Source of the DNA: Thermoplasmata archaeon
Lineage (GTDB): Archaea > Thermoplasmatota > Penumbrarchaeia > JAEHCK01
NCBI GenBank assembly: GCA_020696345.1
Contig: JAEHCK010000003.1
Span: 10,270-74,269 of the forward strand
Direction: 5' to 3'
DNA: 64,000 bases
Shown here: positions 8,434 to 62,114 of the stretch, one piece after another
How the letters are laid out: every line of letters begins with the position of its first letter
How positions within the stretch are numbered: position 1 is the stretch's first letter
Notes under the pieces: model-generated
The model's database searches: none
The model's input: the letters and a program-made list of their open reading frames with translations, nothing else
Told to the model about the DNA's origin: nothing
Translations under genes and position numbers: made by a program

Positions 8434-8556
8434 TTTTAACTTTTAAGATTTAACTTTTGAAATTTGACTTTAAAAAAAATGTATCAATCATTATTCTCTT
8501 CTGTGCAAAACATTTTTTTTAAAAATGATCAAGCCATCATCAATCTATCATAATTA

Positions 8557-8880: not shown

Positions 8881-9116
8881 TTTTTTCCTGAAAAAAGCAA
8901 TAATGTAATTTCAATTTTAACTTTTACAATTTGCCTTGGCAAATTTCTACAAGGGTAAAAATTCTGTTTTTAGTAATATATAATTATTAGGAATTTTTAG
9001 CCCAGGACAATTTGTCTCTACAAATTGTCTAAGTTTAACTTTTACAATTGCCAAAGCAATATATCAGCTTGCTTTAATACCCATTCCAACAACCCATGAT
9101 CGATAACCCTGCATCT

Positions 9117-12704: not shown

Positions 12705-12707
12705 AGC

Positions 12708-13394
12708 CTATTCGTTAATGTGCTCTTTATGAATAAGACCGCTGCGCATCTCCACCACACGCCCGCACACTTTTCCCACAGAAGGATCATGTGTGACTAT
12801 GACGAATGTCTGGTTATTCTCTTTATTCAATTTCATCAATAGTTTCATGATATCTTGAGAGTTTTTGGTGTCCAAGTTACCTGTGGGCTCATCGGCCCAG
12901 ACTATGATGGGTTGATTTACTAGACTTCTTGCAATGGTCACACGTTGTTGCTCGCCACCACTCAACTCGGCCGGTTTATGGTATTTCCATTCGGTCAGAC
13001 CCACCAGGCTAAGTGTCTTTTCTGCTTTTTCACGCGCTTCCTTGGACCGCATTCCGCTGACCAGCAGGGGAAGCTCAACATTTTCCACGGCGGTTAGTAC
13101 CGGCAATAAGTTAAAGCTCTGGAAGATGAAACCCATTTTCATGGCTCGATACTCGGTTCTCGCATTATCTGACATTGCATGTACATCATTACCTTCAAGC
13201 AGTACTTTTCCTTTGGTCAGGTCATCAAGACCGGACAAACAGTTCAGAAGTGTGGTCTTCCCGCACCCCGATGGACCCATGATCGCAACCATTTCTCCCT
13301 TTTTAACCTCAATATCGATGCCCTTGAGTGCTTTGACCTGGATCTTACCTGTATCGTATGTTTTGTATACATTTTTCGCTTTGATCATGCTCAT
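12708..13394 (-). CDS. ABC transporter ATP-binding protein (MacB/LolD-like)
   Basis: It has Walker [10 protein letters not shown], the signature [15 protein letters not shown], Walker [13 protein letters not shown] and an H-loop VTHD. Confidence 0.95.
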
Positions 13395-30900: not shown

Positions 30901-31581
30901 AGTATATTGGATACGCTGTTTCCCGGGATGGCTACGAATGCTCAATATGGCATTTTAGGAGGAATCGTATTATTGATCCTCATAATTTTATTATTGGTTG
31001 TTCGCAGCAAAAAGAAACGAACGCGATCGGAAAAAGATGAAGAGATCTTCAAAGCTACAGAAGAAGAGCGTATCGAGAAAGAGAAACTCAAAACCGAGGA
31101 AGAAGAGAAGAAATTGGAAATGGTATCCAAACAGCCGGTTCGATGCCCCACATGCAAGGAATATTCGGTGATCGAGGATGATGGCACGCGACCGTTGATG
31201 ATCGAGTGTGTGCACTGCGGCGCCAAGGGCTTTATCAGCCTGAAATCAAAGGGCTTGGGCGCACCAAAACTGCCCAAGGATGAAGAAGAAGAGAAACCGA
31301 TCATACGGTGCCCCAAGTGCGACGAGATGTTCACGGTGGACGATGAGGGTGGGGCGATCGAGTGCCCGAACTGCGGTGCAAAGGGTCAACTGAACGAGAA
31401 AACCTTGGAAGAATTAAAAAAGAAACAAAAAAAGGAGAAAGCAAAGCCATCTCCATCAAGGTTTATATCGACACAACCAAAGAAAAATATCAAATGCCCG
31501 AGCTGTAGTAATCAATTCTCTATACCGGCAGATGCAAAAAAGATAGAATGTCCGAGTTGTGGGGTAACAGGTAGTTTGTAG
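24994..31581 (+). CDS. Giant single-pass surface protein (2,195 aa) with Ca-binding-like DxDxDG modules, ~8 PKD domains, Ig-like domains, a C-terminal TM helix and a cytoplasmic tail bearing three zinc ribbons
   Basis: The start is TTG, preceded by AGGAGGA 6 nt upstream, and the only nearby ATG is out of frame. The signal/anchor is LVIILLFFSMITLVLPSSNVAAQ. PKD signatures are present (ANAGPDQ...VTLDGSGSSDPDG...YNWTF; FDGSTSSDPD). The TM helix YGILGGIVLLILIILLLVV is encoded at 30946-31002. There are three CPxC...CPxCG ribbons at 31138-31578. Confidence 0.85.
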   Translation: MTFYGPIFLSSSYKFRSRKNNRVRRKLSSSLVIILLFFSMITLVLPSSNVAAQRDGFEYFVPVPYIQRIDDDMDGYFETARIHYDVDTNVAYAEIKVVCSVYDDETDQLVKEISETYTIFWRVEVTDTYIDYKTSYSGTFNFTLAVYDVIHNKKENGGNDYPVENTTLKVNPYGYRIVPDAIGYDADADGYNDDVKIIVRDSYNYTLQDVEIYIDGEYKGKTAQDGTFLKFNYPRGVHEVDAFYHGEHGNTDFKSEGTGQELSIYADADPFDDDGDGYIDDVLIRAYAYNFYPLPNAQVYIDYYYYGTTNQDGLLYAYNFERGFHYVDIYMRNFWTSTTFYAEGLNQSNVQEYFAWVEASVVSLDNGNLANDIDIYLDVDVEGGKTSNVTVNATLFYENRTVAAESSTNYTAIGYEIEDEHIYFHNVTANLTYNLRCELFDDFGNLEDVWYIWDIVIQISYGMVNVDKFVFDLDDDNHLNDVIFWAHIKDEGYTDANIKVYWESNSTMAHNVNTSLERGYAVIENMQYSNYTWVAYDGDSIEIDNGTFRLYDRNPLRTVQIRVQLHDADRDNFYDDFSIRAYDERDVPDNTVSVMIIDAKNNQTVALGFTSAQTPGGPGRFMVEDLQEGYYRFTATILFGTSESYIISTGWFYSYGNSTESTHNLNAFAVGLDLDSDGYKNDVEITITDRNGQPVMNAIVYFDNDYQNSKTTDQNGITYRTNFTFGWHDVNVVFLGISSSVPTGAQAHTRFFSEGLNYDEYFFWVNFRTINLDNDDHWNDLEIFMDVDVDEDVTVEVSVEVEIHYSSNDTLFAQEMIEFEIFSAVGESNYVFINNLTYNEYFHANLTLKDKDGNIEDYWNKSKILVIPITPLVNIDVFLDQYNDQSVTTNFLSFNAHILDMGIENITIRIYYLSNDTEVAEVTTNIYGDAWVGQQLEDGDYYYIATNSTNHTAEYGEINIGNHSASIYELLRDWDNDNFHDDFSYTGKYYNVTPIGIIQEHINITISIYDLQDNLLDQGNTETVWHFYSYNYTEGYYKFIATYESQRVTNGTFYSYGNGFSNRAPTAIISKPVNNSEWLTTEYINFDGSTSSDPDLDVIDFYWTSNISGPLAYKATSTQKLPEGIHKITLFVDDDHGHNVTDSVTIRVNSPVINVTNQLPTANAGPDQDNVPVNTKVTLDGSGSSDPDGYITEYNWTFVSGPSTPALNDSTYVKPTFTPTTIGTYKWELGVKDNNSEWSVTEDEVIIEVIENQLPIVNISLPIDMAKFNTTDTIFFESNGTYDPDDDTNGNGTIDGSEIDNLTYSWIAAQGNATPVEISTKAYFNISDVNTLLGTGAFIINLTILDTLGANAGTEIEINISNVPPVANITTPEEGEVFNKFTPIYLDGTASEDADNDTTQLYYYWLVEKDGVTKFTFANTSNPVIQEGLEEGDYTITLWVDDSVETDLDLFDRVHNVSTIVNISVENRAPVPKFSMYYPDDAYPNTINLGELAFFNASKSSDPDGERDEANFTYAWDFGDGMTGSGMVVNNSYSGDGEFDVPLTYVVNLTIKDSGSVHNKTAWTNLTIRINRIPEARAGDDIDDASAGEDILLDGSGSYDEDGDILDYQWTFDEENSDKDTIWSTSPYTNVTFDDAGDYIVILNVSDGLGWALQSITITVTKANSAPICVAGGDIKDVEIDEAIFFSGINCSDLDTGDVLTFTWDFGDDSLTKEGINVTHIYSENGEYTVTLNVTDDHGAWANDTLIVTVRPPPAVIELPYDGETLEKIVYITGTTGGNDIDAVEVRIGKYVTENKNSFVAGPWRMATPIDIDDWSEWSFEWDTTKDDDAEYIISVRVTTTYGSTSQMTEIDVIVANGPETTELKVTITNPGNSQTVKKTVTISGTTEGDNIVKVEVQIGNDQWELANNDGGDWSAWSYDWDTTKEIDNRNYQITVQVTDGDGNYKTEIITVKVLNAAATEPDEDEEAESILDTLFPGMATNAQYGILGGIVLLILIILLLVVRSKKKRTRSEKDEEIFKATEEERIEKEKLKTEEEEKKLEMVSKQPVRCPTCKEYSVIEDDGTRPLMIECVHCGAKGFISLKSKGLGAPKLPKDEEEEKPIIRCPKCDEMFTVDDEGGAIECPNCGAKGQLNEKTLEELKKKQKKEKAKPSPSRFISTQPKKNIKCPSCSNQFSIPADAKKIECPSCGVTGSL

Positions 31582-31823: not shown

Positions 31824-33077
31824 TTATCGTCCATATACTCTCCTCAAATTTTTATCCTCTACAGGAAACTCTTCATAAACTCTATAAATCGCCTCAAGAG
31901 TTTTTATAGAATGCTCAAAACTAGTTCTTGGATGTATGTTTTCTTCAATTGCAATGTAAAAATCTTTGAGAATGTTCACATATTCATATTGCGAAGCTCC
32001 ACAATGCCATTCAATGGTTTTACCATCATCTTTATATTCAATTACCGTACCTTCAATAAAATCTATTGTCAAAACCGTTGAATTAACGGTTTTACCACTC
32101 TCATCCCTGTTTTCAAAAGTCACCTCAACTTTTTTGTTATCTTCTTTTGGTAATTTATCGGATTTGTTAATAAATTTTGCGAAAGTAAATTCTCCTTCTG
32201 TATTCTCCCAAAATAAATTACCACTAATTTCAAATTTAGTTTTTACATAAGTTTCAACATCATAGCGTTTGCATTTTTTATGTCCTGGGTATATATCATA
32301 TTCCGCACTTAAAATTTTACCGATTTCACCTTCTATGTTGGTTATTATACCGAATAAATGTACACCCATATCAAGAAGAAGGCCCGTTCTATTTTTTCTG
32401 CATAATAGATCCCTGGTTCTTTGTTTTTCTGGATCATCTTTTTCATACGTATATCCTTTTATCCCAGATATCTTGCCATAGATTTTTGCTGTCTTTTCTA
32501 TGTTTTCATAAAAAGCCATGGATGCTTTTTTAGCAGAATAATGCTCGGCATCCATCATAATACACTTAGATTTGTGATCCTTGACAAGTTCTTTGAGTTT
32601 TTTAAGATATGTTTCGTTACCTTCGTCAGCTTTGTGATTCTCATCGGTAACAGTAACTAATGGTTTTTCGCATAAGACATGTTTATTATTTTTTAATAAC
32701 AATTCAATATAATCTAAGTGAGTTGTGTTTGAAGTATGAATAACTGCAGCATCATAACCCTCTTTGGGTATTTTTCCATTTATAACTGAATAATAATCTA
32801 TTTTTTTGCTCTCCAAATCCTCTTTAAGTCGTTTTGCGCTTTCTATTTCTGCATTTGTATTCTCCTCTCTCCATTTTTTCCCTTTTTCTAAAGCTATTTC
32901 TCTCTTTCCTATTTCACTAGATAATTTATCTATTACATCTGTTTTTATTGGTTCTAGACCACAAATTCCAACTAAATCGAAATACTCAGAAAGTCCATAT
33001 TTAAAAATAGCCGGAAAGAATTTTGCAAGTGCCCACTCTGAGATACACCCAATTTGAAGTAGGTTTATTTTTTTCAT
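31824..33077 (-). CDS. Gfo/Idh/MocA-family NAD(P)-dependent sugar oxidoreductase
   Basis: It has an N-terminal Rossmann-like start (INLLQIGCISEWA), the family motif VLCEKPL, and a C-terminal alpha/beta dimerisation region. The length is 417 aa with insertions. Confidence 0.75.
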   Translation of the reverse strand: MKKINLLQIGCISEWALAKFFPAIFKYGLSEYFDLVGICGLEPIKTDVIDKLSSEIGKREIALEKGKKWREENTNAEIESAKRLKEDLESKKIDYYSVINGKIPKEGYDAAVIHTSNTTHLDYIELLLKNNKHVLCEKPLVTVTDENHKADEGNETYLKKLKELVKDHKSKCIMMDAEHYSAKKASMAFYENIEKTAKIYGKISGIKGYTYEKDDPEKQRTRDLLCRKNRTGLLLDMGVHLFGIITNIEGEIGKILSAEYDIYPGHKKCKRYDVETYVKTKFEISGNLFWENTEGEFTFAKFINKSDKLPKEDNKKVEVTFENRDESGKTVNSTVLTIDFIEGTVIEYKDDGKTIEWHCGASQYEYVNILKDFYIAIEENIHPRTSFEHSIKTLEAIYRVYEEFPVEDKNLRRVYGR

Positions 33078-33365: not shown

Positions 33366-34472
33366 ATGCACCCTTCAATTATTCGTATCGGAACCTCAAA
33401 CATACGCACGGGCAAAGACGGTTATACCTGGGGAAGACCGGCCAAAGATTCACACATACTTCGGTTATTAGATATTAAGCCTGAGGACATTGATATAGCT
33501 GAAGACGAGCCTGTAGGTGAACTTTGGCTTGCCTCGGATGATAAGACCTATCCTTCATTAGTACACTTAGATGGCGGCTCAACCATTACCCTTACCGAAC
33601 TTCTTGTAAAAGATGGAAGATCCATCCTAGGAGAAAAACATTTTTCACTCTACGGGCCGCATATTGCTACAATAATGAAATTGATCGATGCTGGCCAACC
33701 ATTATCCGTTCAAGTTCACCCGGCCATGGGCCATCCTTCACGGCCGGCAAAACCGGAGATGTGGATGATCGTAAGGTCAGGTGCACGATTTTATATTGGT
33801 TTTAACCGGGATATTTCTATCGAGATGTTAAAAAAAGCATATGAGGATGGTACTCTTGAAGGTCTACTGTATCAATTAGAAGCCGGACCTGAAGAGCTTT
33901 TTATTGTGAGTGGTGGATTGATCCATGCTTTGAGAGCAGAAACAACACTCTGGGAATGGTCACATGCTCTTACTGGCAAGGAACTCGAACGAGGCGACCT
34001 CAAGGGCGCCACCGTTGCTCTGTGGGATAGAACGGACGGTAAGGAGCCGCGGCCCGACAAAGAAGATCTGGAGGGAACTATAGAGGTATTGGACGATGCC
34101 GCCGAAAGAGCACGAATACCCGTGTATAATAAAGTAGTATTAGATAAAATACGAAGCCAGAGAAACACTATTTATTCGGATCTGAGGAAAAACAAAATTG
34201 ATAGACTCTTCACCACTGATGAGGTCATTGTAGATGAGATCATTTTAGATAATACGTTGCCGCAAGATACCGACGATCACGGCTATCCTATTTTTATATT
34301 GGAGGGCACTGTAGAGATCCAGGCACCGGATGGTGCAATGCTTGATAAATTAACCACAAACGATTGTGCAATAATTCCCGCCTATTTGGGTAAACATACG
34401 CTCGTTAACAGATCCACCGAACCATCCAAGATCATCAGATGGTATGCACCGATCGATAAGATGTTTTGCTAG
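33366..34472 (+). CDS. Type I phosphomannose isomerase-like cupin (mannose-6-phosphate isomerase)
   Basis: It has LSVQVHP, the metal-binding signature of class I PMI, followed by a C-terminal cupin half. Confidence 0.7.
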   Translation: MHPSIIRIGTSNIRTGKDGYTWGRPAKDSHILRLLDIKPEDIDIAEDEPVGELWLASDDKTYPSLVHLDGGSTITLTELLVKDGRSILGEKHFSLYGPHIATIMKLIDAGQPLSVQVHPAMGHPSRPAKPEMWMIVRSGARFYIGFNRDISIEMLKKAYEDGTLEGLLYQLEAGPEELFIVSGGLIHALRAETTLWEWSHALTGKELERGDLKGATVALWDRTDGKEPRPDKEDLEGTIEVLDDAAERARIPVYNKVVLDKIRSQRNTIYSDLRKNKIDRLFTTDEVIVDEIILDNTLPQDTDDHGYPIFILEGTVEIQAPDGAMLDKLTTNDCAIIPAYLGKHTLVNRSTEPSKIIRWYAPIDKMFC

Positions 34473-34628: not shown

Positions 34629-34637
34629 GTGATAAAA

Positions 34638-35036
34638 ATGGATGACGAGAAGATATTATATAAAGACTTATCGTATAAAATCATGAATTCTGCTTTCGAA
34701 GTCCAAAATATTTTAAGCTCTGGTTTAACAGAAAATATATATGAAGAGGCACTATGTCATGAATTTGATTTACAAGAAATAAAGTATAGAAGACAAGTCC
34801 CAGTAGATATCTTTTATAAAAACAAGCAAATAGGAAGATATGTAATTGATTTGGTTATTGAAAATAAAATTGTGTTAGAATTAAAATCGGTTTCAGCGTT
34901 GCATGAAAGTCACGAAGCTCAAATAATATCCTATATAAAGGCTACAAAATTAAAATTGGGAATCTTGATCAATTTTGGACAAGCTAAGGTTGAATATAAA
35001 AGGATATTAAATTCAGATCTAGTAGACCTACCCTAA
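34638..35036 (+). CDS. GxxExxY protein (PDDEXK_3 / PD-(D/E)xK nuclease-fold family)
   Basis: It has the GLTENIYEEAL (GxxExxY) motif, the D..VIENKIVLELK (D-x(n)-E-x-K) core, and a C-terminal GILINFG. The ORF track start is GTG 34629, with an ATG at 34638. Confidence 0.8.
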   Translation: MDDEKILYKDLSYKIMNSAFEVQNILSSGLTENIYEEALCHEFDLQEIKYRRQVPVDIFYKNKQIGRYVIDLVIENKIVLELKSVSALHESHEAQIISYIKATKLKLGILINFGQAKVEYKRILNSDLVDLP

Positions 35037-35040
35037 AAAT

Positions 35041-35159
35041 CTCATTCGTGTATTCGAACATTCGAATTATTCGTTGTAAAAAATATTAAAAGAGTGGTCT
35101 TATATTGACTTCCTATTCCTCACCCATATAACGAATCAACGAATGGACGAATAATAATC
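35041..35159. repeat. Downstream copy of the ATTCG/CGAAT-word hairpin element
   Basis: TATTCGAACATTCGAATTATTCGTTGTAAAAA (35051-35082) matches the 32 nt at 34597-34628 with ~4 mismatches. ATAACGAATCAACGAATGGACGAATAATAATC lies at 35128-35159. Confidence 0.7.
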
Positions 35160-35261
35160 ATTTAGATATAATTAAATTGAATTTAAATCCTTTCAGGGAT
35201 ACTGGCCGTATCTAGCTGTATCCAAAAAATTTAATTTGTAGCTCCACATACGGCCACAACA

Positions 35262-38200
35262 ATGAAGCTTATTGATGTTTTAAACCTCCCCCTGGAGCTA
35301 GAGCCTGTCTTAGCCCAGTTAAAAGGCTTGGAAGAACTGGTTAATGGCGCTTTATCTAACTTAGAGGTAGTTGATTATACAATTGGCACTCAAAGCACAA
35401 CCGAGGACCTTAAAGCAATGATCGGCACTGAGAGTTTAAGTCTATTATCAACCGGTTATCTTGCCCAGAGATTGTTCAAGGCTGAACAGGATGTCAAGAC
35501 AATTTCTTACCTATATATGCTCTCATATTTCAGAAGCCTTCCACATGAAAAACGCCACCAGGCAAAAGGCGAACTGAATGAATTAACCAGCGGCAACGAA
35601 AGCCATTTGGGAGATAAACTATTCATGGAGATAAACCTGGACCTGGATGATGTCATCAATAACAAAGATCTGAAGGCTCTAATAATTCTAAGGGACCAGG
35701 TAGTAAGCCGCACAAGAGCCTTACGTATCGCCTTTGAGACCTCTGGTCTTAATATGAACGATCTGGAATTAATTACACGGAACCCTAAGTTACTGCACAC
35801 TGTGCTGGGCTTGCGTACCGCAGCGGCTATAGAGAACAACTACACCAACAATGAACTTTCACGACTGAAAACACTACTCAATGTCTTTGACCATGTTGAA
35901 GGGGCGGCAATAAATTTAACACATTTGGCAGATGGTCAGATCTATATTTACGACGAATACCTCGTTAAACTAATTGTATTTGATCAGAATAACCATAAAA
36001 AATCCTCACTTTCTTTACATAATGAGGGGGTTGAACATTTGATCGGCCTCGATATGGCCAAACGTTCAGGCGAACTCTATCATCTGACCGAGGCATCATG
36101 CATAATTAACGATAGATCTTTGAACCTGTTGATCAAGTCCATTGCAGGACCATTATTGACCGATCGTAAAGATGATCGATTTACCAGTTGGGATAGTGAG
36201 AGATATATCTGGCGATCAGCAGGTTTGGGCAGTCGTTTCTATGAGCTAGAACGTCCCAATGTTGATGTCGTTGCCATGGCAACCATCGACCGTGAAGTGG
36301 CAACCTACAACCAGATAGAAACCGAATTGGAAAACTGGCGGATCTTTAACCGCAGACCCATCTTCATGTTGATCGATGATTCAGGAGTAACGCGCGATGG
36401 AAAGCCCGATTCACCAAATCCGATCTTGGATGCTAATATTCGCAACCTGGAGCGTCTCCATAAAAAATTTGGAGACCGGTTCATTCATCTGACCTACGAA
36501 AACAGGGATAGCGACCAGGCTGCATGGGCAGAGGCCACATTTAATAGACTGGAGGCAAAGCTGAAGAACAACAATCTTGAACCCGTGCTAATGACGATAT
36601 TAAAGGAATACAGAGAGGGTAATATTCTCCTGAACGAAGATGGATGTTCAATCAATAAAACAGCATTTACAAAATATATATCCAGCAACATTTTTAGACA
36701 CATTTCCGGCGTTCGTAATTACACATTCTTAAAAGCACTGGGTTATCGCGTAATGAGCGAAGACGATGATGCACCGCCTGAAACCTATGTGGTCTTGCCA
36801 AAAGACCTGGAGCAGATCAGAAATAGACGTGAAACCGCCCGTAACAACGTGATGAAAGAACTATTTAGCGAATCATCAAAGATATTAGGAAAGCAGATAA
36901 CCTCAGAGGAACAGCTTTATCAATTCTGGGTAAATGAAACAAATCCTGAAAAACTCACCCAGCTAGATAAATTGGAGGATATTTATTTCGGGTATAGTAA
37001 GGATGGCGACTGCGGCCTTATTCCTCAGGCAGTAGAGCAGATACGTACCTATTCCAGCCACTATATGGATCCTCGGTATAAACGCACCCACCAGCGCTAT
37101 GAAGGCCTCAGCAGGCCGCAAGCTGGACATGATCAAGATGGCCGGATCATTTATGAGGACCTGCCGGAATATCTGATAACAATAAATGACTTCTATTATC
37201 GGCCTGGCCGCATAGAAAAGGATGATAACCAATGCTCGGTCTTTCCCGTAAATATCATCGGTAGCACGAGAGATCTGGGTAAAAAGGTAAAGGATACTAA
37301 TTTAATGGTATTCTCCAATAACCTGCGTCATACTGTTGCTATGCCGGCAGATGCAACTACGATTGAAGAAACCCAGGAAAAGATCATCGAATATATTGCC
37401 TTTCCATTTATTAATGACCATGACACCTCGGGCATGGCACAGTTCATCAGGTATCTATTAAGTAAAACCAAGTTCTGGTATGATCTGCAGCACACCCATC
37501 AATCTTCATTGATCGTTAATTCAGTGCGGGGTTATGTTACCTTTGGCTATGCAATATTCAACCGCTCTGCATTTCGCAATTTTATCCCGGGTGTATCTAT
37601 TGGACGCGAACTGCGCCTGGAAGAGCCGCCGTATATACCGTGGGTCAAGTCTCCGCTCTTTAAGGGCGAGCTGGTAGTCTCCTCTGGCAAGGTTGGAGGC
37701 GGTCAGCAGCGCCAGCCAAATGAACGCAACTATTGTATCAGTCAGCAAGATAACACAGAGGTACTGGGAACAACCGCGCGGCGCATATATGAAAAAGCAG
37801 TGGAAAACTACTATGAACATATTAATAAATTACCTGAAGACGATCTCCTTAAGCAAGAGGACAATCATTACGGCCGCTCTCTTCTTCTTGGTAATTATTA
37901 TATCGATGAAGCCAAGGCATTTAAGCTCAATGACTTGGAAATTGAACAGCTCAAGAGTGAGCGCAACTTCCGGAGTCAAATGGCCACTACCCTGGGTATT
38001 CAGATCGTTCAAATGGAGGAGAAGTTATTAAACGTTCAAAACACAGGTGAAGTATCAAATTCAGGAAAAGATGCATTACAACCTCAATTACAGGATATGT
38101 GCCTTATCTTGGTCCAGATGGCTGATGATTTTGATCTATATAATGCCCTGGACCGCAGGAAAAATGATTACTCGCCCAAAGACCCAACAAATGATTATTT

Positions 38201-38684
38201 CTATCGTTTAAGGATGCAAGGGGCCACCCTATTTTATAAAAAAGTAAGTCCACAACTCACAGTTGAAAATGTCAAGGGCATTATGATCGCCACTAAAGCC
38301 GGTTGGGTAGAACTGGAAGCCGAAAAGCAGTTGGAGCTGGATGAGACGAACCGTACATCGGTGAAGGATGAACTTTGTGATGCTATCCGTATCGAGATCG
38401 AACCCGGACGGTTCGTGTTTATGGAAAAAGATAGATTGCCAGAAGACGGACAAGAATTTTACGTCACTGCCGCCTCTCAAGATCATGAAAAAGATTTTAT
38501 TATCGGAGTAGAGAAACATATAATGGACTATGTTCAACACGATGGTGAGGCAATAGCTTTATGGGCAATACTTACCAATGAAGCCCAGAAGCTGGATTCT
38601 TCACACGAGATGGATGAGTTATTAGGAATAGAGGCCAATCGAGCGCCAAAGGAAGTTTATAGGGAGATTAAAAAAGATGGGTGA
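35262..38684 (+). CDS. Large cytoplasmic protein of unknown function (1,140 aa) with a possible GT-A-like core
   Basis: This is a long clean ORF with no TM segment, signal peptide or P-loop. MLIDDSGVTRDG (nt ~36368-36400) resembles the GT2 'DDGSTD' motif, and SEDDDAPP (nt ~36756-36779) could be a DxD motif. The stop overlaps the start of the next gene (ATGGGTGA). Confidence 0.7.
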   Translation: MKLIDVLNLPLELEPVLAQLKGLEELVNGALSNLEVVDYTIGTQSTTEDLKAMIGTESLSLLSTGYLAQRLFKAEQDVKTISYLYMLSYFRSLPHEKRHQAKGELNELTSGNESHLGDKLFMEINLDLDDVINNKDLKALIILRDQVVSRTRALRIAFETSGLNMNDLELITRNPKLLHTVLGLRTAAAIENNYTNNELSRLKTLLNVFDHVEGAAINLTHLADGQIYIYDEYLVKLIVFDQNNHKKSSLSLHNEGVEHLIGLDMAKRSGELYHLTEASCIINDRSLNLLIKSIAGPLLTDRKDDRFTSWDSERYIWRSAGLGSRFYELERPNVDVVAMATIDREVATYNQIETELENWRIFNRRPIFMLIDDSGVTRDGKPDSPNPILDANIRNLERLHKKFGDRFIHLTYENRDSDQAAWAEATFNRLEAKLKNNNLEPVLMTILKEYREGNILLNEDGCSINKTAFTKYISSNIFRHISGVRNYTFLKALGYRVMSEDDDAPPETYVVLPKDLEQIRNRRETARNNVMKELFSESSKILGKQITSEEQLYQFWVNETNPEKLTQLDKLEDIYFGYSKDGDCGLIPQAVEQIRTYSSHYMDPRYKRTHQRYEGLSRPQAGHDQDGRIIYEDLPEYLITINDFYYRPGRIEKDDNQCSVFPVNIIGSTRDLGKKVKDTNLMVFSNNLRHTVAMPADATTIEETQEKIIEYIAFPFINDHDTSGMAQFIRYLLSKTKFWYDLQHTHQSSLIVNSVRGYVTFGYAIFNRSAFRNFIPGVSIGRELRLEEPPYIPWVKSPLFKGELVVSSGKVGGGQQRQPNERNYCISQQDNTEVLGTTARRIYEKAVENYYEHINKLPEDDLLKQEDNHYGRSLLLGNYYIDEAKAFKLNDLEIEQLKSERNFRSQMATTLGIQIVQMEEKLLNVQNTGEVSNSGKDALQPQLQDMCLILVQMADDFDLYNALDRRKNDYSPKDPTNDYFYRLRMQGATLFYKKVSPQLTVENVKGIMIATKAGWVELEAEKQLELDETNRTSVKDELCDAIRIEIEPGRFVFMEKDRLPEDGQEFYVTAASQDHEKDFIIGVEKHIMDYVQHDGEAIALWAILTNEAQKLDSSHEMDELLGIEANRAPKEVYREIKKDG

Positions 38685-40368
38685 TCCTGGTTTATCATTC
38701 TTAAACAAAGAACCGGCCCCCTTAAGATTTGGCACCAGCGGCTTGAGAGGGTTAGTTGAGGATATGACCGATCTCGAGTGTTACATCAACGTAAAAGGAT
38801 ATGTAGAATATCTGAAGAGTATCGGCATCGAAAAGGGTGGTATCGAAGAGGGTGATATTCTCGACATTGCTGGCGACCTGCGTTCCAGTACACGAAGGAT
38901 CATAGCTACAGTAGCACGTGCAATAGAGGATTCAGGTTCAATAGCCAATAACTGCGGTGAGATCCCCACCCCGGCTCTTGCCTATTATGCCATGCAAAAT
39001 CATCGTGCTAGCATTATGGTTACGGGTAGTCATATACCTGACGAGCCCCCTCGAAACGGTATAAAACCATACAAAACCAACGGAGAGGTCCTTAAATCCG
39101 ATGAGGACGGGATCTTTGAATGTGTGGCAAGGGTAAGAAGGGAAGAATACGCCAAATTAGGCACAGCTGAATCTCTTTTCACTCATGATGCATTGTTCAA
39201 AACAAAAAAAGCTCTGCCCGAAATAGATGAACAAGCGGAGGATTTGTATATTCACCGATATCTGGACGTTTTCCCTCAAAATTGCCTAAAAGATCAAACT
39301 CTTGTGGTCTATGAGCATTCAGCAGTGGGCAGGGATGTATTGGTAAAGATCCTTGAAGGTTTGGGCGCCAATGTAATAAGGGTGGGTAGAAGCGATAATA
39401 CATTTATTCCCGTAGATACAGAGGCAATTAGAAAGGAAGATGAAAGACGAATCAAGCAGTGGGCTAAGGAGTATATGCCCTTTGCGGTATTATCTACTGA
39501 TGGTGATAGTGACCGTCCATGGCTCTCTGATGAGAATGGTGAATTTTTAAGGGGGGATAAGCTGGGAATATTAGCGGCAAAGTACTTGAGAGCCGATTTC
39601 GCTGCTGTTCCTATAAGCTCAAATGATGCAGTTGACCGTTTCTTAAAAGATGAGCTTCAGTTAAAAAAGGCAAGAATTGGCAGTCCGTATGTGATCAAAG
39701 AAATGCTGGATGCAGTTAGCGAAGGGTTTAATAGAGTTGTCAGTTGGGAAGTTAATGGTGGATTTCTTACTCAGACAGAGCTCACCATCGATAATGATAA
39801 TAAGACATTAAAAGCTCTGCCGACAAGAGATGCAGTTCTTCCTCTTCTATGCACCATGCTTTTGGCTATAAAAGAAGGAAGGACGATTTCATCACTCATT
39901 GATACACTTCCAAAACGGTTTACACAAGCCGGAAAGAAAGAGTTCTCCATGGCAATGGACCAATACCTGGATATAAGCAGCCAGATCATCAAAGAGTTTT
40001 CCTTCGAGGATGTTAATATTGATAAGGTTAATTTTGGCGAAAAGATTACTATTTTCTACAAAGATATGAGTAAAAAAGAAATTGACCGCAGCGGCCCGTT
40101 GGGCGAAGTGTTGTTGAGAAAGAAGGATGGCCTAGAGAACGATCTTCCACAAGAGTTCGATGAGATAGCCGCCATGATCTTCACCGATGGAGTAAGGATC
40201 ATTTTGACTAATGATGATATCATCCATTTCCGACCCTCGGGCAATGCTCCTGAATTCAGATGCTATTCCAATGCAAATTCACAAGAGCGAGCTGATCGGA
40301 TCGTGGAAATCGGCATGGATCACATTCTGCCGGATATAATTAAAAAAATTGCTATGCAAAAAAGATAA
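38677..40368 (+). CDS. Alpha-D-phosphohexomutase superfamily enzyme (phosphomannomutase/phosphoglucomutase-like) with atypical motifs
   Basis: It has FGTSGLRG, the catalytic-Ser loop TGSHIPDE..NGIK (SHIP instead of the usual SHNP), the metal loop DGDSDR and the phosphate-binding loop RPSGNAPE. Confidence 0.8.
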   Translation: MGDPGLSFLNKEPAPLRFGTSGLRGLVEDMTDLECYINVKGYVEYLKSIGIEKGGIEEGDILDIAGDLRSSTRRIIATVARAIEDSGSIANNCGEIPTPALAYYAMQNHRASIMVTGSHIPDEPPRNGIKPYKTNGEVLKSDEDGIFECVARVRREEYAKLGTAESLFTHDALFKTKKALPEIDEQAEDLYIHRYLDVFPQNCLKDQTLVVYEHSAVGRDVLVKILEGLGANVIRVGRSDNTFIPVDTEAIRKEDERRIKQWAKEYMPFAVLSTDGDSDRPWLSDENGEFLRGDKLGILAAKYLRADFAAVPISSNDAVDRFLKDELQLKKARIGSPYVIKEMLDAVSEGFNRVVSWEVNGGFLTQTELTIDNDNKTLKALPTRDAVLPLLCTMLLAIKEGRTISSLIDTLPKRFTQAGKKEFSMAMDQYLDISSQIIKEFSFEDVNIDKVNFGEKITIFYKDMSKKEIDRSGPLGEVLLRKKDGLENDLPQEFDEIAAMIFTDGVRIILTNDDIIHFRPSGNAPEFRCYSNANSQERADRIVEIGMDHILPDIIKKIAMQKR

Positions 40369-40420: not shown

Positions 40421-42199
40421 CTACGGCTCGGATCTCTTCGAGAGCTTCTCTTGCCAGATGTCAATTGGTTTTTTACCTTTTCCTTTTATCTCCGGATCAT
40501 CATATACCACTTGTGCGATCTTATATGCTGTTTCTTCAACTTTGTAGCTATCCGTACCTTGCACCTGGACCCTTATAATAGGTTCTGTGCCGGAGGGGCG
40601 GGTCACATGTTCGTAGCCACCTTCCAGGTCTTCCATGATCTTGGATATTTTTTCTTTAACTACCAAAGGTTCAATGACTTCCAGGCCAAGATCGTTCTTT
40701 GTTTTTAATGCGTTTTTATTTTCTATAGATATATATACCAGAATTTTCGGATAATCTTCGTAGAGACCATCTATATCTTCTATATTCCAACCTTCCAGCT
40801 CCATTAATGCTTTGACCAATAAGGAATTTCTTATGCCATCACCACATGCCTCATTCTGCATATTCATAATCGCAAGTAATATTATTTTAGCTCGCTCTTC
40901 CGCACCGGTTGTGGTGGTTGCATTCTTGATAAGTCCTTTGGCTTTATCACTAAAGTGAACTGCCCCATGACCCGATGCCTCATAGTAAACTCCAATATCG
41001 AATCTCTCAGCACCGGCACGGGTGTATTTATCACCCACCTTTGTCCTTTCAACAGGTAATTTCAATTCTTTCTCCACATACTTTTCTGCTGATTTATTAG
41101 CCAATACTGTCATAATATAACCGATATCGAGCTTCAGATCCAGTTCCTCAATATTCTTTTTAACGCATCTTATAATGTACGCGGCGATCTTATTACCATC
41201 GATCAGGTTCAAGTTACCATTTCCATCGAAATAACAACCAATATTTCTGTCATTATCACCATCGATGGACCAAAGTTCCATATTATTCCAAGGCTGGGCT
41301 CCGTATCCTTCTATTTTGATCAATGAATTCTTTGTCTTTGGATCTTTGATCATTTCCACACCTTTTGGCAATTCATTCTTGGTAAAAACATAATTGGCAC
41401 CGCATTTTTTGTTGATCGTGCCTTCACCGGTATTGACTAATGTTATATTCAATTCAGAAAGTTGTTCAGCCACCCTTTTGGCAAATTTTGAACCCGATCC
41501 GTTAGCAGCATCAAATATGGTCAGAGTTTCACTTAAATTCTCATCTTTTTTAAGAGATAATATTTCTTTCACATTCTCCACGGTATCTTTGACATAATCA
41601 TCGTCTATATCGGGCTGCTCGATAGTCTTACCCATCTTTATATCCGAGAGGTTAATACCAACTTCTCCGGCAATTTTTACGATCTCTTTTCTTAGGTCCT
41701 TTGCATTTACTATTCTGTTGGTTATCTTTTCCCATTTGGGCGAGATCTTTTTGCCGTTCTTATCAAATAGTTTCAAACCGTTTTGGTGCTCTGGGTTGTG
41801 CGAGCCTGTAATTACGATTGCAGCGCCTGCCGATCGATCGGTCCGTGCGTAAGTTCCACATTGAGGTGTAGTGGAGATACCGTTTTCACCATCTATTTTC
41901 ACATCAATACCCAATTCCAATGCGCCATTGACAGCCGCAGCCATTAAAGAAGGACCTGATGCTCGGTTATCTCTGGCAATATGAACATTTGTTTTGGATT
42001 CTGCTAATGTTAAAATTGCACAGGCAATTCCAAATCTATAAGCCGTAGAGGTTGAGACCTTACCGTTTTGGATCACATGATCTTCGGTAGTCTCACCGCG
42101 AATGCCATCGGTTTCCATTACCGAATCGCCGGTATTTACTTTAGGAATGTAATTTTTGTTCTCATGCCAATTATATAATAAGTTTTTTGCTCGCGACAT
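40421..42199 (-). CDS. Alpha-D-phosphohexomutase, AGM1/PGM3-like (phosphoacetylglucosamine mutase type)
   Basis: It has the catalytic loop TGSHNPEHQNGLK, the metal loop DGDNDRNIGCYF...LIDGNKIAAY, the sugar loop EASGHG (AGM1-style E-A-x-G-H-G rather than the bacterial GlmM GEQSGH), and the phosphate loop RPSGTEP. The length is 592 aa. Confidence 0.75.
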   Translation of the reverse strand: MSRAKNLLYNWHENKNYIPKVNTGDSVMETDGIRGETTEDHVIQNGKVSTSTAYRFGIACAILTLAESKTNVHIARDNRASGPSLMAAAVNGALELGIDVKIDGENGISTTPQCGTYARTDRSAGAAIVITGSHNPEHQNGLKLFDKNGKKISPKWEKITNRIVNAKDLRKEIVKIAGEVGINLSDIKMGKTIEQPDIDDDYVKDTVENVKEILSLKKDENLSETLTIFDAANGSGSKFAKRVAEQLSELNITLVNTGEGTINKKCGANYVFTKNELPKGVEMIKDPKTKNSLIKIEGYGAQPWNNMELWSIDGDNDRNIGCYFDGNGNLNLIDGNKIAAYIIRCVKKNIEELDLKLDIGYIMTVLANKSAEKYVEKELKLPVERTKVGDKYTRAGAERFDIGVYYEASGHGAVHFSDKAKGLIKNATTTTGAEERAKIILLAIMNMQNEACGDGIRNSLLVKALMELEGWNIEDIDGLYEDYPKILVYISIENKNALKTKNDLGLEVIEPLVVKEKISKIMEDLEGGYEHVTRPSGTEPIIRVQVQGTDSYKVEETAYKIAQVVYDDPEIKGKGKKPIDIWQEKLSKRSEP

Positions 42200-42296: not shown

Positions 42297-43277
42297 TCAA
42301 TTAGTTTTTTTTCCTAAGATCTTGAATTCCAGATCTTTTATCATATTTTCCTTCAAACCGATCAATGGATAATATATTGGTAAAGTACCGGTATGGCTAT
42401 TAGTAAATTTTTTGAAGTTCTCCAGGTCAATACCGATACAGATACCTTTCACTCGAACATAGCGCATGTAGTTCAGAAATTCTTCATTATTTAGATCTAT
42501 AATATCATAATTATTAGTCATATCCGCAGATCGTTCCTCCGTGGTTGATACCTCAATTATTTTTAACCCAATATTCGGCGTCCATGTCCTCAATGCTTCG
42601 ATCTGGTCCGTGATAAGGGCATCCTCCTCTTGTCGGTTCTCACCATTCTTGGAATTGGCCCGGAAATATACGGGGTATGTCCTGCACCCGCGTTTCATCA
42701 TCAACCATGCTGCAATGTATGAGTATTGGTCGGTAAAAATACTGACCACCTTACCCTGCGTACTCAATGGCAGTCCACCTGGGCCGGGGTATGATTCAGA
42801 AAAAACGAATGCGCGATTATTTCTTACTTCAACAAATATCTCAACATCTGGTGCGGAAAGATCTACCTTCAGCTCGAGATCGTTGAACCGGTCCAGAATA
42901 ACCGATCCCAAATGCCTGGCCAGGTCCATGCTTGTATATTTGTGTGTACCGGTACGGCGTGTCCGCAATGCAAAGGTCTGCTTTGAGGTCAATAAGGTCT
43001 TACCATATTCAACGACCTTCTGAGTAATTTCCGATATATCGGAACTTGTAGTTATAACCGGGCTAACCGAAATTATACCGAATATTGTGGTGAGCAGTCT
43101 TATCCCCAGACCTTCGTCATCGGTATGAAGATAGATCCTGCCCCAATCCGACTCGATAATACAATCGGTCCCGGCCCGTAAGAATTTATCCTCAATGTTT
43201 CTTATCATCTGTTTCTGGAACCTCTGGCGTACTCTCGGGCTTTTCAAGCCGAGTTCATTATATCTAATCAAAAGCAT
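42297..43277 (-). CDS. ThiI-like THUMP-domain protein with a degenerate PP-loop
   Basis: The N-terminus MLLIRYNELGLKS... and THUMP region are ThiI-like. In place of the expected SGGxDS PP-loop the sequence reads VVSIFTDQYSYIAAWLMMKRGC. Confidence 0.65.
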   Translation of the reverse strand: MLLIRYNELGLKSPRVRQRFQKQMIRNIEDKFLRAGTDCIIESDWGRIYLHTDDEGLGIRLLTTIFGIISVSPVITTSSDISEITQKVVEYGKTLLTSKQTFALRTRRTGTHKYTSMDLARHLGSVILDRFNDLELKVDLSAPDVEIFVEVRNNRAFVFSESYPGPGGLPLSTQGKVVSIFTDQYSYIAAWLMMKRGCRTYPVYFRANSKNGENRQEEDALITDQIEALRTWTPNIGLKIIEVSTTEERSADMTNNYDIIDLNNEEFLNYMRYVRVKGICIGIDLENFKKFTNSHTGTLPIYYPLIGLKENMIKDLEFKILGKKTN

Positions 43278-59101: not shown

Positions 59102-59137
59102 CCATATGCAATCTGGACGCCTGTAGAGTCAAATACT
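59102..59137 (+). other. 5' strand of the 23S pre-rRNA processing stem (bulge-helix-bulge-like)
   Basis: CCATATGCAATCTG (59102-59115) pairs with CAGATTGCGTATGG (62136-62149). GTAGAGTCAAATACT (59123-59137) pairs with AGTATTGACTCTAC (62115-62128). The unpaired 7-nt segments between these helices form an internal loop. Confidence 0.7.

Positions 59138-62114
<2,977 letters not shown>

What the first reader, a model, noticed from the sequence alone, without database searches (positions are those of the whole stretch)
35262..38684. 1,140-aa cytoplasmic orphan protein translationally coupled to a phosphohexomutase: candidate novel sugar-transfer enzyme
This is the largest non-envelope ORF in the window, and I cannot assign it to a family. 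It has no TM segment, signal peptide, Walker A motif or obvious repeats. The only hints are a GT2-like MLIDDSGVTRDG segment and an SEDDDAPP acidic motif ~130 residues later, which could be the nucleotide-sugar and DxD sites of a GT-A fold embedded between large helical regions. Its stop overlaps the start of the mutase gene (ATGGGTGA at 38677-38684), which implies stoichiometric co-expression. The neighbours supply hexose-1-phosphates (PMI and two mutases) and a sugar oxidoreductase. The locus may therefore encode an undescribed pathway for a glycoside, compatible solute or glycan primer.
Basis: inference. Interest (0 to 1): 0.7.

Follow-up and report, generated by a model that had tools for sequence, protein, structure and literature searches.

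The report
Unannotated glycosyltransferase-like module beside a phosphomannomutase
The 1,140-aa protein is not an orphan: it is a free-standing archaeal copy of an unannotated ~1,000-residue module, probably built around a sugar-transferring (GT-A) core, that in Omnitrophota bacteria is fused into giant sugar-metabolism proteins, repeatedly with the same mannose-supply enzymes that flank it here.

Summary
The ORF (35262-38684, +), its motifs and its 8-nt ATGGGTGA overlap with a phosphohexomutase gene are all real.

"Orphan" holds only for annotation libraries: Pfam, NCBIfam, PDB sequences and a k-mer search found nothing. An exhaustive HMMER search found 57 relatives, and 19 genome loci carry the module.
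- Most are Omnitrophota/PVC-labelled MAGs, where the ~1,000-aa module sits inside giant ORFs (2,800 to more than 6,300 aa).
- Two are Woesearchaeota.
- The window's host is a Thermoplasmata-like archaeon.

The gene pair is conserved in the strongest way. The same mutase type is fused to the module in P0008, P0036 and L012, and a 65%-identical PMI shares the module's ORF in L017. Other fusion partners are GT4, GT5, mannose-1-P guanylyltransferase-like, fucose-pyrophosphorylase-like, UDPGP, DUF4922, an NDP-sugar epimerase and GDPD.

A GT-A (GT2-like) core is supported by several lines of evidence, none decisive:
- an invariant DDD, plus TxxRP, IDDS and SGxRN motifs in GT2 order;
- PF00535 hits in 4 of 23 members;
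- hhalign P=3.6e-4;
- an AF2 beta/alpha pattern;
- weak Foldseek hits dominated by GT-A enzymes.

Best reading: a metal-dependent NDP-hexose (probably GDP-mannose) glycosyltransferase of a new family. Donor, acceptor and product are unknown.

The parts
35262..38684 (+). Target gene: 1,140-aa cytoplasmic protein, a stand-alone copy of a conserved ~1,000-aa module (conserved from about residue 55 to 1120)
   Evidence: ORF. 57 homologues. No Pfam or NCBIfam hit. AF2 model with MSA: pLDDT 76.7, pTM 0.78.
35403..36251 (+). N-terminal, mostly helical region (residues ~48-330) with small beta elements. Conserved in the family (Y230, E258, G270). Function unknown.
   Evidence: AF2 secondary structure; conservation.
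36267..36794 (+). Putative GT-A (GT2-like) nucleotide-sugar-binding half, residues 336-511. It contains beta1 VVAMATIDRE, FMLIDDS, HISGVRN and SEDDDAPP.
   Evidence: Beta/alpha/beta pattern. PF00535 hits in 4/23 members covering profile positions 1-70. hhalign register and P=3.6e-4.
36366..36401 (+). MLIDDSGVTRDG (residues 369-380): GT2-type 'xxDDxS' strand. D372 is conserved in 42/43 sequences.
   Evidence: Aligns to SpsA 'FIMDDNS'.
36495..36689 (+). Family-specific helical insertion (residues ~412-476) between the third strand and the SGxRN motif. It explains why profile methods miss GT2.
   Evidence: Helices H412-435, H441-449 and H466-476. Excising it raises the hhalign score from 17.2 to 27.5.
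36699..36779 (+). HISGVRN (480-486), then 12 residues, then SEDDDAPP (499-506): the candidate DxD metal/diphosphate site. I481, G483 and R485 are 46/46; D501, D502 and D503 are 48/48 across the family.
37059..37751 (+). Second conserved block (residues ~600-830) with THQRY, DLR(G/H)T, PFxxD(Q/H)DTS, LQHT, IFNR, LRLEEPPY and GGGQQR. It may be the acceptor/catalytic half or a second active site. Model confidence is lower here.
   Evidence: Invariant residues. pLDDT 38-84.
37737..38129 (+). Long helical hairpins (residues 826-956)
   Evidence: AF2 helices H826-856, H869-886, H891-927 and H933-956, pLDDT ~85-93.
38139..38624 (+). C-terminal all-beta domain (residues ~960-1070), then helices 1073-1121 with an invariant DGE...W motif (D1094, G1095, W1101)
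38677..38684 (+). ATGGGTGA: 8-nt overlap of the target's stop codon with the mutase start codon. A GGGAG lies 12-17 nt upstream of the ATG.
38677..40368 (+). Phosphohexomutase (563 aa, four PGM/PMM domains, active-site MVTGSHIP). Closest solved relative is a phosphomannomutase. It is fused to the module in other genomes.
   Evidence: Pfam. PDB 4hjh, E=6.5e-83. Fusions in P0008, P0036 and L012. Sequence.
33366..34472 (+). Type I phosphomannose isomerase. A 65%-identical homologue lies in the same giant ORF as the module in Omnitrophota locus L017.
31824..33077 (-). GFO/IDH/MocA-type sugar oxidoreductase. A 27%-identical homologue lies directly downstream of the module gene in Woesearchaeota locus L020.
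40421..42199 (-). Second, convergent phosphohexomutase (AMG1/GlmM-like)
35037..35261 (+). 225-bp AT-rich intergenic region upstream of the target. A TTTAATTT element lies ~30 nt before the ATG and could be an archaeal TATA box (read by eye, not tested).
   Evidence: Sequence. The promoter reading is inference only.

Best explanation
The gene encodes a stand-alone copy of an unannotated, ~1,000-residue multidomain module. Its catalytic core is a divergent GT-A-fold (GT2-like), DxD/metal-dependent glycosyltransferase.

Proposed pathway:
1. PMI (33366-34472) converts fructose-6-P to mannose-6-P.
2. The translationally coupled phosphomannomutase (38677-40368) makes mannose-1-P.
3. A guanylyltransferase activates it to GDP-mannose or a related GDP/NDP-hexose. 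This enzyme is not in the 64-kb window, but it is fused to the module elsewhere.
4. The module binds the NDP-sugar through the IDDS strand, SGxRN and the invariant D501-D503 with a divalent cation, and transfers the hexose to an unidentified acceptor. The acceptor is most likely a growing cytoplasmic glycan or glycoconjugate.

What is shown:
- the family exists;
- it is fused and neighboured with sugar-activation enzymes and other glycosyltransferases;
- it has GT2-type motifs in GT2 order.

What is inferred:
- the GT-A fold (moderate evidence);
- glycosyltransferase activity;
- GDP-mannose as donor;
- the nature of the acceptor;
- co-translation with the mutase.
For: Family:
- 57 homologues, 31 with E<1e-30; 19 genome loci.

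Fusions with the NDP-hexose supply line:
- P0008 = module + isochorismatase-like + NTP_transferase + PGM/PMM. Its mutase part matches the window mutase at E=1e-181. Its NTP_transferase part is closest to mannose-1-P guanylyltransferase 2x5s, E=8.7e-32.
- P0036 = module tail + linker + mutase, in the window's gene order.
- L012 = PGM/PMM + module in one 2,806-aa ORF.
- L017 = GT5 + GT1 + fucose-pyrophosphorylase-like + module + PMI, the PMI 65% identical to the window's.
- L018 has a ManC-like domain in the same ORF.
- L020 = module + UDPGP.
- P0021 = module + NDP-sugar epimerase/dehydratase.
- P0002 carries DUF4922, the GDPGP1 domain (PMC7041677).
- P0007, P0014 and L019 fuse it to GT4.
- L019 neighbours are two GH130 mannoside phosphorylases, GT4s and a PMM.
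- The window mutase is closest to phosphomannomutase 4hjh, E=6.5e-83.

GT-A core:
- Invariant DDD 48/48, I/G/R of ISGxR 46/46, D372 42/43, R344 42/42.
- PF00535 is the only Pfam family hit by more than two of the 23 members scanned (4 members). The best hit is E=4.4e-5 at 23.9 bits (cut-off 23.3), over profile positions 1-70.
- hhalign against a small GT2 profile gives the motif-predicted register, with P=0.044 for the full region. With the helical insertion removed it gives P=3.6e-4 and score 27.5, against a maximum of 19.8 for 30 shuffles.
- The AF2 model (pLDDT 76.7) shows beta-alpha-beta-alpha-beta with DDD at a strand end.
- The best Foldseek hits in two libraries are GT-A enzymes: TcdB GT44, CmsA/Ktr4 GT15, GlcAT-P GT43 and a viral GT8.

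Location:
- No TM segment, consistent with a cytoplasmic enzyme.
Against: - No structural match is significant: best Foldseek E=0.09 (PDB) and 0.19 (BFVD).
- The target itself has no Pfam hit even at E<=10.
- The module profile finds no GT in the PDB by sequence.
- The significant hhalign result needed manual excision of an insertion and used a five-sequence GT2 profile.
- PF00535 matches cover only the first ~70 profile positions, which is a generic Rossmann-like part.
- The spacing from IDDS to DDD is ~130 residues, more than twice that in the GT2 sequences used for comparison (about 60 in SpsA).
- The 600-830 block, which holds most invariant polar residues, is modelled with low confidence and has no assigned fold.
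- No nucleotidyltransferase gene is present in the window.
- The closest relative (L003) has no mutase within 8 kb.
- No experiment exists.
Confidence: 0.6

Rival explanations
1. Compatible-solute synthase. The GT-A core transfers mannose from GDP-mannose to a small acid acceptor such as D-glycerate or 3-phosphoglycerate, working like mannosylglycerate or mannosyl-3-phosphoglycerate synthases (both GT-A enzymes, from general knowledge).
For: - Mannose supply enzymes surround or are fused to the module.
- P0023 fuses it to a glycerate kinase (DUF4147/MOFRL) and P0029 to a pyruvate kinase.
- The protein is cytoplasmic and soluble.
Against: - Fusions to polymer-type transferases are more frequent: GT5 starch-synthase-like and GT4.
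- At least three tandem module copies occur in one ORF on contig CAWHFJ010000013.1 (loci L008/L018).
- A 1,000-residue module is far larger than known solute synthases.
- No Pfam hit to Osmo_MPGsynth or related families was reported in any scan.
Confidence: 0.1
2. Self-glycosylating primer or initiator (glycogenin-like). It would seed a glucan or mannan that the co-fused GT5/GT4 domains extend.
For: - It is fused with complete GT5+GT1 glycogen/starch-synthase-like units in P0002 and L017.
- GT5 is the most common glycosyltransferase domain in Archaeovorin-type Omnitrophota giant proteins (10.1101/2023.11.21.568195), and PF08323 is the top Pfam of the sugar-metabolism domain module in 10.64898/2026.06.07.730766.
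- The best BFVD Foldseek hit is a GT8 protein, the glycogenin family (E=0.19).
Against: - The Foldseek hit is not significant.
- The window has no GT5 or GT4 gene near the target.
- Many family members lack GT5.
- No conserved Tyr or Ser acceptor site has been identified.
Confidence: 0.1
3. Protein-glycosylating effector of the large-clostridial-toxin type (GT44-like), used by predatory Omnitrophota and acquired secondarily by archaea.
For: - The top PDB Foldseek hit is the TcdB glucosyltransferase domain, with 432 aligned columns.
- TcdB-type domains are likewise GT-A cores decorated with helical subdomains (general knowledge).
- Omnitrophota giant proteins have been proposed to act in predation on archaea (10.1101/2023.11.21.568195).
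Against: - E=0.09, probability 0.15, rmsd 29 A, so the match is not significant.
- The consistent fusion to sugar-supply and polymerising enzymes, and the presence as a housekeeping-looking operon in an archaeon, fit biosynthesis better.
- There is no secretion signal.
Confidence: 0.05
4. Not a glycosyltransferase. The Rossmann-like, DDD-containing region has another phospho- or nucleotidyl-transfer chemistry (for example a sugar-phosphate or glycerophosphate transferase or polymerase), or the module is mainly a structural scaffold of the giant proteins.
For: - All GT-A evidence is sub-threshold or borderline.
- There are fusions to GDPD, CofD (a phosphotransferase), kinases and HIT-like domains.
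- The large 600-830 block, with many invariant Arg, Asp, Gln and His residues, is unassigned.
Against: - Four GT2-type motifs occur in the correct order and register.
- PF00535 is the only recurrent Pfam hit.
- About 60 family-wide conserved, mostly polar residues argue against a pure scaffold.
Confidence: 0.15

Closest known systems
GT2-type GT-A glycosyltransferases (Pfam PF00535; e.g. B. subtilis SpsA, PDB 1H7L/1QGQ)
   Same: - Same order of landmarks: beta1 + (T/N)xxRP-type turn, 'xxDDxS' strand, G/A-x-R/N-N helix start, then a DxD (here DDD) 15 residues later.
- PF00535 hits in four family members, and an hhalign register identical to SpsA.
   Different: - A ~65-residue helical insertion lies inside the nucleotide-binding half.
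- About 90 residues of helices follow DDD.
- About 280 extra N-terminal and 300 extra C-terminal conserved residues.
- The target itself scores below every Pfam threshold.
- There is no QxxRW motif and no membrane domain.
'Multi-enzyme metabolic' / sugar-metabolism giant proteins of Omnitrophota, and Archaeovorins (bioRxiv 10.64898/2026.06.07.730766; 10.1101/2023.11.21.568195)
   Same: - Homologues of the target, of its mutase and of its PMI are domains of these giant ORFs.
- The same co-occurring Pfam set is reported in the preprints: PF08323, PF00534, PGM/PMM.
   Different: - Here the parts are separate genes (1,140 aa, 563 aa, 368 aa) in an archaeon.
- The module matches no Pfam model in the copy used here.
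- In the passages I searched, neither preprint describes such a module, but I did not read them in full.
GDP-mannose-dependent GT-A mannosyltransferases (e.g. CmsA/Ktr4, GT15, PDB 7BOO) and mannosylglycerate-type synthases
   Same: - Mannose-supply context.
- DxD/Mn-type motif.
- CmsA is the second-best PDB Foldseek hit.
   Different: - The Foldseek E of 0.1 is not significant.
- No sequence similarity is detectable.
- Size and architecture are completely different.
Large clostridial toxin glucosyltransferase domain (GT44, TcdB, PDB 5UQT)
   Same: - A GT-A core elaborated with helical subdomains.
- It is the best PDB Foldseek hit.
   Different: - The match is not significant (E=0.09, probability 0.15).
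- The biological context here is biosynthetic, not that of a secreted toxin.

Membership tests
GT-A fold glycosyltransferases (GT2-like, PF00535 / clan GT-A) | Acidic DxD-type motif at the end of a beta strand that binds the divalent cation and NDP diphosphate | tested here: met
   D501-D502-D503 are invariant in 48/48 family sequences. In the AF2 model they lie at the end of strand E496-501. Whether they actually bind metal was not tested.
GT-A fold glycosyltransferases (GT2-like, PF00535 / clan GT-A) | Significant profile match to a GT-A family model | tested here: inconclusive
   - The target has no Pfam hit at E<=10.
- 4 of 23 family members hit PF00535; the best is E=4.4e-5 at 23.9 bits against a cut-off of 23.3.
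- hhalign gives P=0.044 for the full region, and P=3.6e-4 after excising the insertion, against a shuffle maximum score of 19.8.
GT-A fold glycosyltransferases (GT2-like, PF00535 / clan GT-A) | Three-dimensional GT-A fold (mixed beta sheet flanked by helices, Rossmann-like N-half) | tested here: inconclusive
   - The AF2 model (pLDDT 76.7) has the expected beta/alpha alternation over residues 336-511.
- Whole-chain Foldseek gives only sub-threshold hits, although these are enriched in GT-A enzymes.
GT-A fold glycosyltransferases (GT2-like, PF00535 / clan GT-A) | NDP-sugar-dependent glycosyl transfer | not testable with these tools
   This needs biochemistry.
Processive GT2 synthases (cellulose, chitin or hyaluronan synthase type) | D,D,D,Q(Q/R)xRW signature plus a membrane channel domain | tested here: not met
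   - A GGxQxR motif is conserved (G813, Q815, R817), but no Trp follows it.
- There is no TM segment.
- BcsA appears only at Foldseek rank 41, E=0.88.
GT44 large clostridial toxin glucosyltransferases | Significant structural or sequence similarity to the TcdA/TcdB catalytic domain | tested here: not met
   Foldseek E=0.09, probability 0.15, rmsd 29 A. No TcdA_TcdB Pfam hit.
Omnitrophota giant multi-enzyme proteins / Archaeovorins | A single ORF of many thousands of residues tiling many enzyme domains | tested here: not met
   - The target is a separate 1,140-aa gene in an archaeal contig.
- Its homologues are domains of such ORFs: L003 5,239 aa, and L008 and L017 more than 6,300 aa with open ends.
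alpha-D-phosphohexomutase superfamily (the coupled downstream gene) | Four PGM/PMM domains and an active-site Ser loop (T/G-S-H-x-P) | tested here: met
   - PF02878, PF02879 and PF02880 are above threshold. PF00408 is at 20.9 bits, below its 23.1 cut-off.
- The MVTGSHIP loop is present.
- The best PDB relative is phosphomannomutase 4hjh, E=6.5e-83.

The most novel reading that the evidence does not exclude
The module founds a new glycosyltransferase family: a ~1,000-residue, GT-A-cored, GDP-hexose-dependent synthase with a second conserved catalytic block. On this reading:
- It is a hitherto unannotated catalytic component of the sugar-metabolism class of Omnitrophota giant proteins, with at least three tandem copies in one polypeptide.
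- It has crossed between these archaea-associated bacteria and archaea at least twice.
- The Thermoplasmata copy is a naturally 'unbundled' three-gene version (PMI, module, mutase), which would make the product of the giant proteins experimentally accessible for the first time.
Probability: 0.3. Interest if true: 0.75.

Novelty: new variant of a known kind. Interest (0 to 1): 0.55.

Why it matters
- The giant ORFs of Omnitrophota are a current puzzle, and much of their length has no annotation. This work defines one large recurrent piece of that unannotated sequence and gives it a testable function: a DxD glycosyltransferase fed by a PMI, PMM and guanylyltransferase line.
- It identifies a small, soluble, single-gene archaeal version that can be expressed and assayed, which the giant ORFs (thousands to more than 100,000 residues) cannot easily be.
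- If glycosyltransferase activity is confirmed, the family would merit a new CAZy GT family and a Pfam entry.
- The 59-61% identity between an archaeal gene and domains of bacterial giant ORFs documents inter-domain exchange of enzyme modules, by fusion or by fission.
- If it proves to be just another GT2-like enzyme making a cell-envelope or storage mannan, the biological interest is modest.

Tried and rejected
- **Single-sequence AF2:** useless (pLDDT 31.7).
- **k-mer-indexed homology search:** with the sequence it found only the protein itself. With profile A1 it added only three proteins.
- **The look-up of encoding contigs:** the protein is not on record.
- **PDB sequence searches:** the protein, the whole-module profile and the GT-A-half profile gave only noise.
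- **Whole-chain Foldseek:** nothing below E=0.09 against PDB or BFVD. A domain-only search could not be run.
- **hhalign of A3 against the single SpsA sequence:** no meaningful alignment.
- **Mining GT2 genes from held loci:** only two found, so the GT2 profile is thin (five sequences).
- **The search for related loci with A1:** failed because the alignment was too divergent. It was repeated with A2.
- **First NJ tree:** wrong because of a parsing error (identities of ~6%). It is superseded.
- **Working guess of a DPANN host:** rejected, because PAN is 80% identical to that of a Thermoplasmata MAG.
- **PF26216:** listed in precomputed Pfam hits for P0002 but absent from the Pfam copy available, so I cannot say whether it covers the module. 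It is probably not the module, because the target and P0020 have no precomputed Pfam hit. However, the window's own entry is masked.
- **Compositional evidence for recent transfer:** none. Target GC is 0.431 against 0.408 for the window.
- **Sigma-70 promoter scan:** not used, because the host is archaeal.

Full report
**Observation.** The ORF at 35262-38684 (+) exists, starts with ATG and encodes 1,140 aa.
- The stop codon overlaps the ATG of the next gene within ATGGGTGA at 38677-38684.
- The protein has no TM-like segment (maximum Kyte-Doolittle 19-mer 0.96), no Walker A motif, no DNA tandem repeats and no internal protein repeat.
- Neighbours are a type I phosphomannose isomerase, a four-domain PGM/PMM mutase, a second AMG1/GlmM-like mutase on the opposite strand, and a GFO/IDH/MocA oxidoreductase.
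- The only larger ORFs are PKD, He_PIG or Ig surface proteins and an FtsX/MacB permease.

**Host.** The window is archaeal.
- It carries a full archaeal 23S rRNA, plus PAN, PAC2, Spt5/NusG, L11 and FtsZ.
- PAN is 80% identical to that of an uncultured Thermoplasmata MAG. The next hits, at ~62%, are also Thermoplasmata or Methanomassiliicoccales.
- My earlier guess of a DPANN host was wrong.

**Not an orphan.** Pfam, NCBIfam, PDB sequences and the k-mer-indexed protein search give nothing.
- The exhaustive HMMER search of 1.84 billion representatives finds 57 relatives, 31 with E<1e-30.
- A scan of reference genomes finds 19 loci.
- Most are Omnitrophota or PVC-labelled MAGs. Single loci are labelled Myxococcota, Proteobacteria or Bacteroidales, and two are Woesearchaeota.
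- The conserved unit spans roughly residues 55-1120 of the target.
- In bacteria it is almost always a domain of much larger ORFs: 5,239 aa in L003, 2,806 aa in L012, and more than 6,300 aa (open at both ends of the 19-kb locus) in L008 and L017.
- One contig (L008/L018) has at least three module copies in one reading frame.
- Stand-alone or near-stand-alone versions occur in the window, L015, L016 and some database proteins.
- In a distance tree the window protein groups with L003 and the NCBI protein P0002 ('Candidatus Omnitrophica') at 59-61% identity. It does not group with the Woesearchaeota copies at ~31% (one search was a parsing error and is void).
- Composition gives no sign of recent import: GC is 0.431 against 0.408 for the window.

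**Gene context.**
- P0008 contains the module, an isochorismatase-like domain, an NTP_transferase and a PGM/PMM. Its mutase part matches the window's mutase at E=1e-181.
- P0036 joins the module's C-terminal tail (58% identical to the target's) through a ~75-residue Ser-rich linker to the same mutase, in the same order as in the window.
- The L012 ORF contains a 49%-identical mutase upstream of the module.
- In L017 a PMI 65% identical to the window's lies in the same open frame as the module, together with a GT5+GT1 starch-synthase-like unit and a fucose-pyrophosphorylase-like domain.
- Further partners:
  - GT4 (P0007, and P0014, which is the L019 protein);
  - GT5+GT1+DUF4922+GDPD (P0002);
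  - GDPD (P0010);
  - UDPGP (L020);
  - an NDP-sugar epimerase/dehydratase (P0021);
  - CofD (P0016);
  - a glycerate kinase (P0023);
  - a pyruvate kinase (P0029);
  - a methyltransferase with a cytidylate kinase (P0005);
  - a weak PRK/uridine kinase hit (P0004).
- In Woesearchaeota L019 the GT4-module gene is flanked by two GH130 mannoside phosphorylases, two more GT4 genes and a PMM. In L020 a GFO/IDH/MocA oxidoreductase follows it, as in the window's neighbourhood.
- Two preprints on Omnitrophota giant proteins report the co-occurring set of starch-synthase GT5, GT1 and, in the 2026 preprint, PGM/PMM. In the passages I searched they do not describe this module.

**Mannose signature.**
- The window's mutase is far closer to a solved phosphomannomutase (4hjh, E=6.5e-83) than to any other solved mutase; the next is at 1e-16.
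- P0008's nucleotidyltransferase is closest to mannose-1-phosphate guanylyltransferase (2x5s, E=8.7e-32).
- A ManC-like domain is in the L008/L018 giant ORF, and a ManC-like gene sits next to the mutase homologue in a Saccharimonadales genome.
- The upstream gene matches mannose-6-P isomerases.
- DUF4922 is the domain of GDP-hexose phosphorylases such as GDPGP1 (PMC7041677).
- No guanylyltransferase gene lies in the 64-kb window.

**Fold.** An AF2 model with a 15-sequence MSA reached pLDDT 76.7 and pTM 0.78.
- Predicted layout:
  - a helical N-region (48-330);
  - an alternating beta/alpha segment (336-511);
  - helices (513-600);
  - a mixed, lower-confidence block (600-830);
  - long helical hairpins (826-956);
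  - an all-beta domain (960-1070);
  - terminal helices.
- Whole-chain Foldseek found nothing significant. The best hits are nevertheless GT-A enzymes: TcdB GT44 (E=0.09), CmsA/Ktr4 GT15 and GlcAT-P GT43 in the PDB, and a GT8 protein (E=0.19) with several GT2, GT8 and GT32 proteins in BFVD.
- I scanned region 328-520 of 23 family members against Pfam. PF00535 (Glycos_transf_2) was the only family hit by more than two members (4 members). The best hit was E=4.4e-5 at 23.9 bits, just above the 23.3 cut-off. It covered profile positions 1-70, the first strand through the 'VVIDDS' strand.
- I built a five-sequence GT2 profile from SpsA (my recalled sequence, validated at 580 bits against 1H7L), chondroitin synthase and heparosan synthase segments printed by the PDB search, and two GT2 genes from L001.
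  - hhalign reproduced the register predicted from motifs: VVAMATIDRE~VSVIMTSYNKS, FMLIDDS~LFIMDDNS, SGVRN~AALIN, SEDDD~ATDD. The P-value was 0.044.
  - After excising the family-specific helical insertion (target residues 415-475, within the ~412-476 insertion) it gave P=3.6e-4 and score 27.5, against 7.4-19.8 for 30 column-shuffled controls and 11.7 for the reversed profile.
- Across the family D501-D503 are 48/48, I481/G483/R485 are 46/46, R344 is 42/42 and D372 is 42/43 (printed numbers plus 11).
- Taken together this is moderate, convergent support for a GT2-like GT-A nucleotide-sugar-binding half. It is not proof.
- The second block (600-830) contains many more near-invariant polar residues: R612, R689, D719/D721, Q743, N767, R785, E787, E788, Q829 and E833. 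Its fold and role are unassigned.

**Mechanism proposed (confidence 0.6).** The protein is a cytoplasmic, metal-dependent NDP-hexose glycosyltransferase.
- It acts downstream of PMI, phosphomannomutase and a guanylyltransferase encoded elsewhere, most likely using GDP-mannose or a related GDP-hexose.
- The acceptor is unknown, but is probably a glycan that GT4 or GT5 partners also act on.
- Shown: the family, the fusions, the motif order and conservation.
- Inferred: the fold, the activity, the donor, the acceptor, and co-translation with the mutase.
- Rivals not excluded:
  - a mannosylglycerate-type solute synthase, suggested by the glycerate-kinase and pyruvate-kinase fusions;
  - a glycogenin-like primer for GT5;
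  - a TcdB-like protein glycosyltransferase;
  - a non-GT phosphotransfer enzyme or scaffold.

**Comparison and novelty.**
- Functionally it most resembles GT2-type GT-A transferases.
- Membership of PF00535 is not established for the target, and its architecture has no described counterpart that I could find.
- It fails the tests for processive GT2 synthases (no W in the QxxRW position, no membrane domain) and for GT44 toxins.
- It is related to, but is not itself, an Omnitrophota giant protein.
- I rate it a new variant of a known kind: a candidate new GT family.
- Its main value is as a tractable, naturally unbundled handle on the sugar-metabolism giant proteins of Omnitrophota, and as a case of inter-domain module exchange.

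Noticed in passing
window 18836-24913, 24994-31581, 43658-48625: Three giant ORFs (2,025, 2,195 and 1,655 aa) made of Ig-like, PKD, He_PIG, CARDB, GLUG and cadherin-like domains, presumably surface proteins. The 2,195-aa one ends in zinc-ribbon-like motifs.
   Followed up: partly
window 34629-35036: A GxxExxY / PDDEXK_3 nuclease-family gene (E=5e-39) sits between PMI and the target. Its GC is very low (0.284 against 0.41 for the window), so it looks like an inserted or foreign gene splitting the PMI-module cluster.
   Followed up: partly
window 59134-62114: A complete archaeal 23S rRNA gene with no 16S gene beside it. A PAN ATPase gene lies immediately upstream on the opposite strand and an MFS transporter gene downstream. 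No tRNA gene is found anywhere in the 64 kb.
   Followed up: no
window 42297-43277 (-): A ThiI-like protein of only 326 aa. It has ferredoxin-like and THUMP domains and just the first ~50 residues of the ThiI PP-loop domain, so it may be truncated or a different THUMP enzyme.
   Followed up: no
window 31824-33077 (-): The GFO/IDH/MocA oxidoreductase gene has unusually low GC (0.314, GC3 0.225) compared with its neighbours. A homologue follows the module gene in Woesearchaeota L020.
   Followed up: partly
window 5077-13394 (-): Two consecutive pairs of a 228-aa ORF and a large FtsX/MacB-type permease (776 aa and 1,195 aa), probably duplicated ABC export systems. The 6-8 kb bin has raised GC (0.514). 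The 228-aa ORFs were not annotated.
   Followed up: no
L008 8001-11033 and 13965-17009; L018 1977-5021 and 11721-12959 (contig CAWHFJ010000013.1): At least three copies of the ~1,000-aa module lie in tandem within one uninterrupted Omnitrophota reading frame, together with a ManC-like domain.
   Followed up: partly
P0002-P0036 sequences: Domains of the Omnitrophota giant proteins are often joined by short Ser-rich linkers (SSSP[ILV], SSPV, VSSS). P0003 and P0052 share a conserved ~230-aa C-terminal extension beginning 'KSSSAGH'. Read by eye only.
   Followed up: no
P0058: A 2,291-aa protein from a 'candidate division Kazan' MAG is a distant relative of the module (25% identity over 38% of the query) and carries a PHP domain. 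This extends the family to a CPR bacterium.
   Followed up: no
L001 8904-11485 (Saccharimonadales MAG): The closest genome-collection relatives of the window's mutase outside Omnitrophota are in Saccharibacteria (45-46% identity). In L001 a ManC-like gene lies directly upstream, which supports a phosphomannomutase role for this mutase subfamily.
   Followed up: partly
window 52166-53494 (-): A clostripain-family (C11) peptidase gene lies in an archaeal contig next to FtsZ.
   Followed up: no
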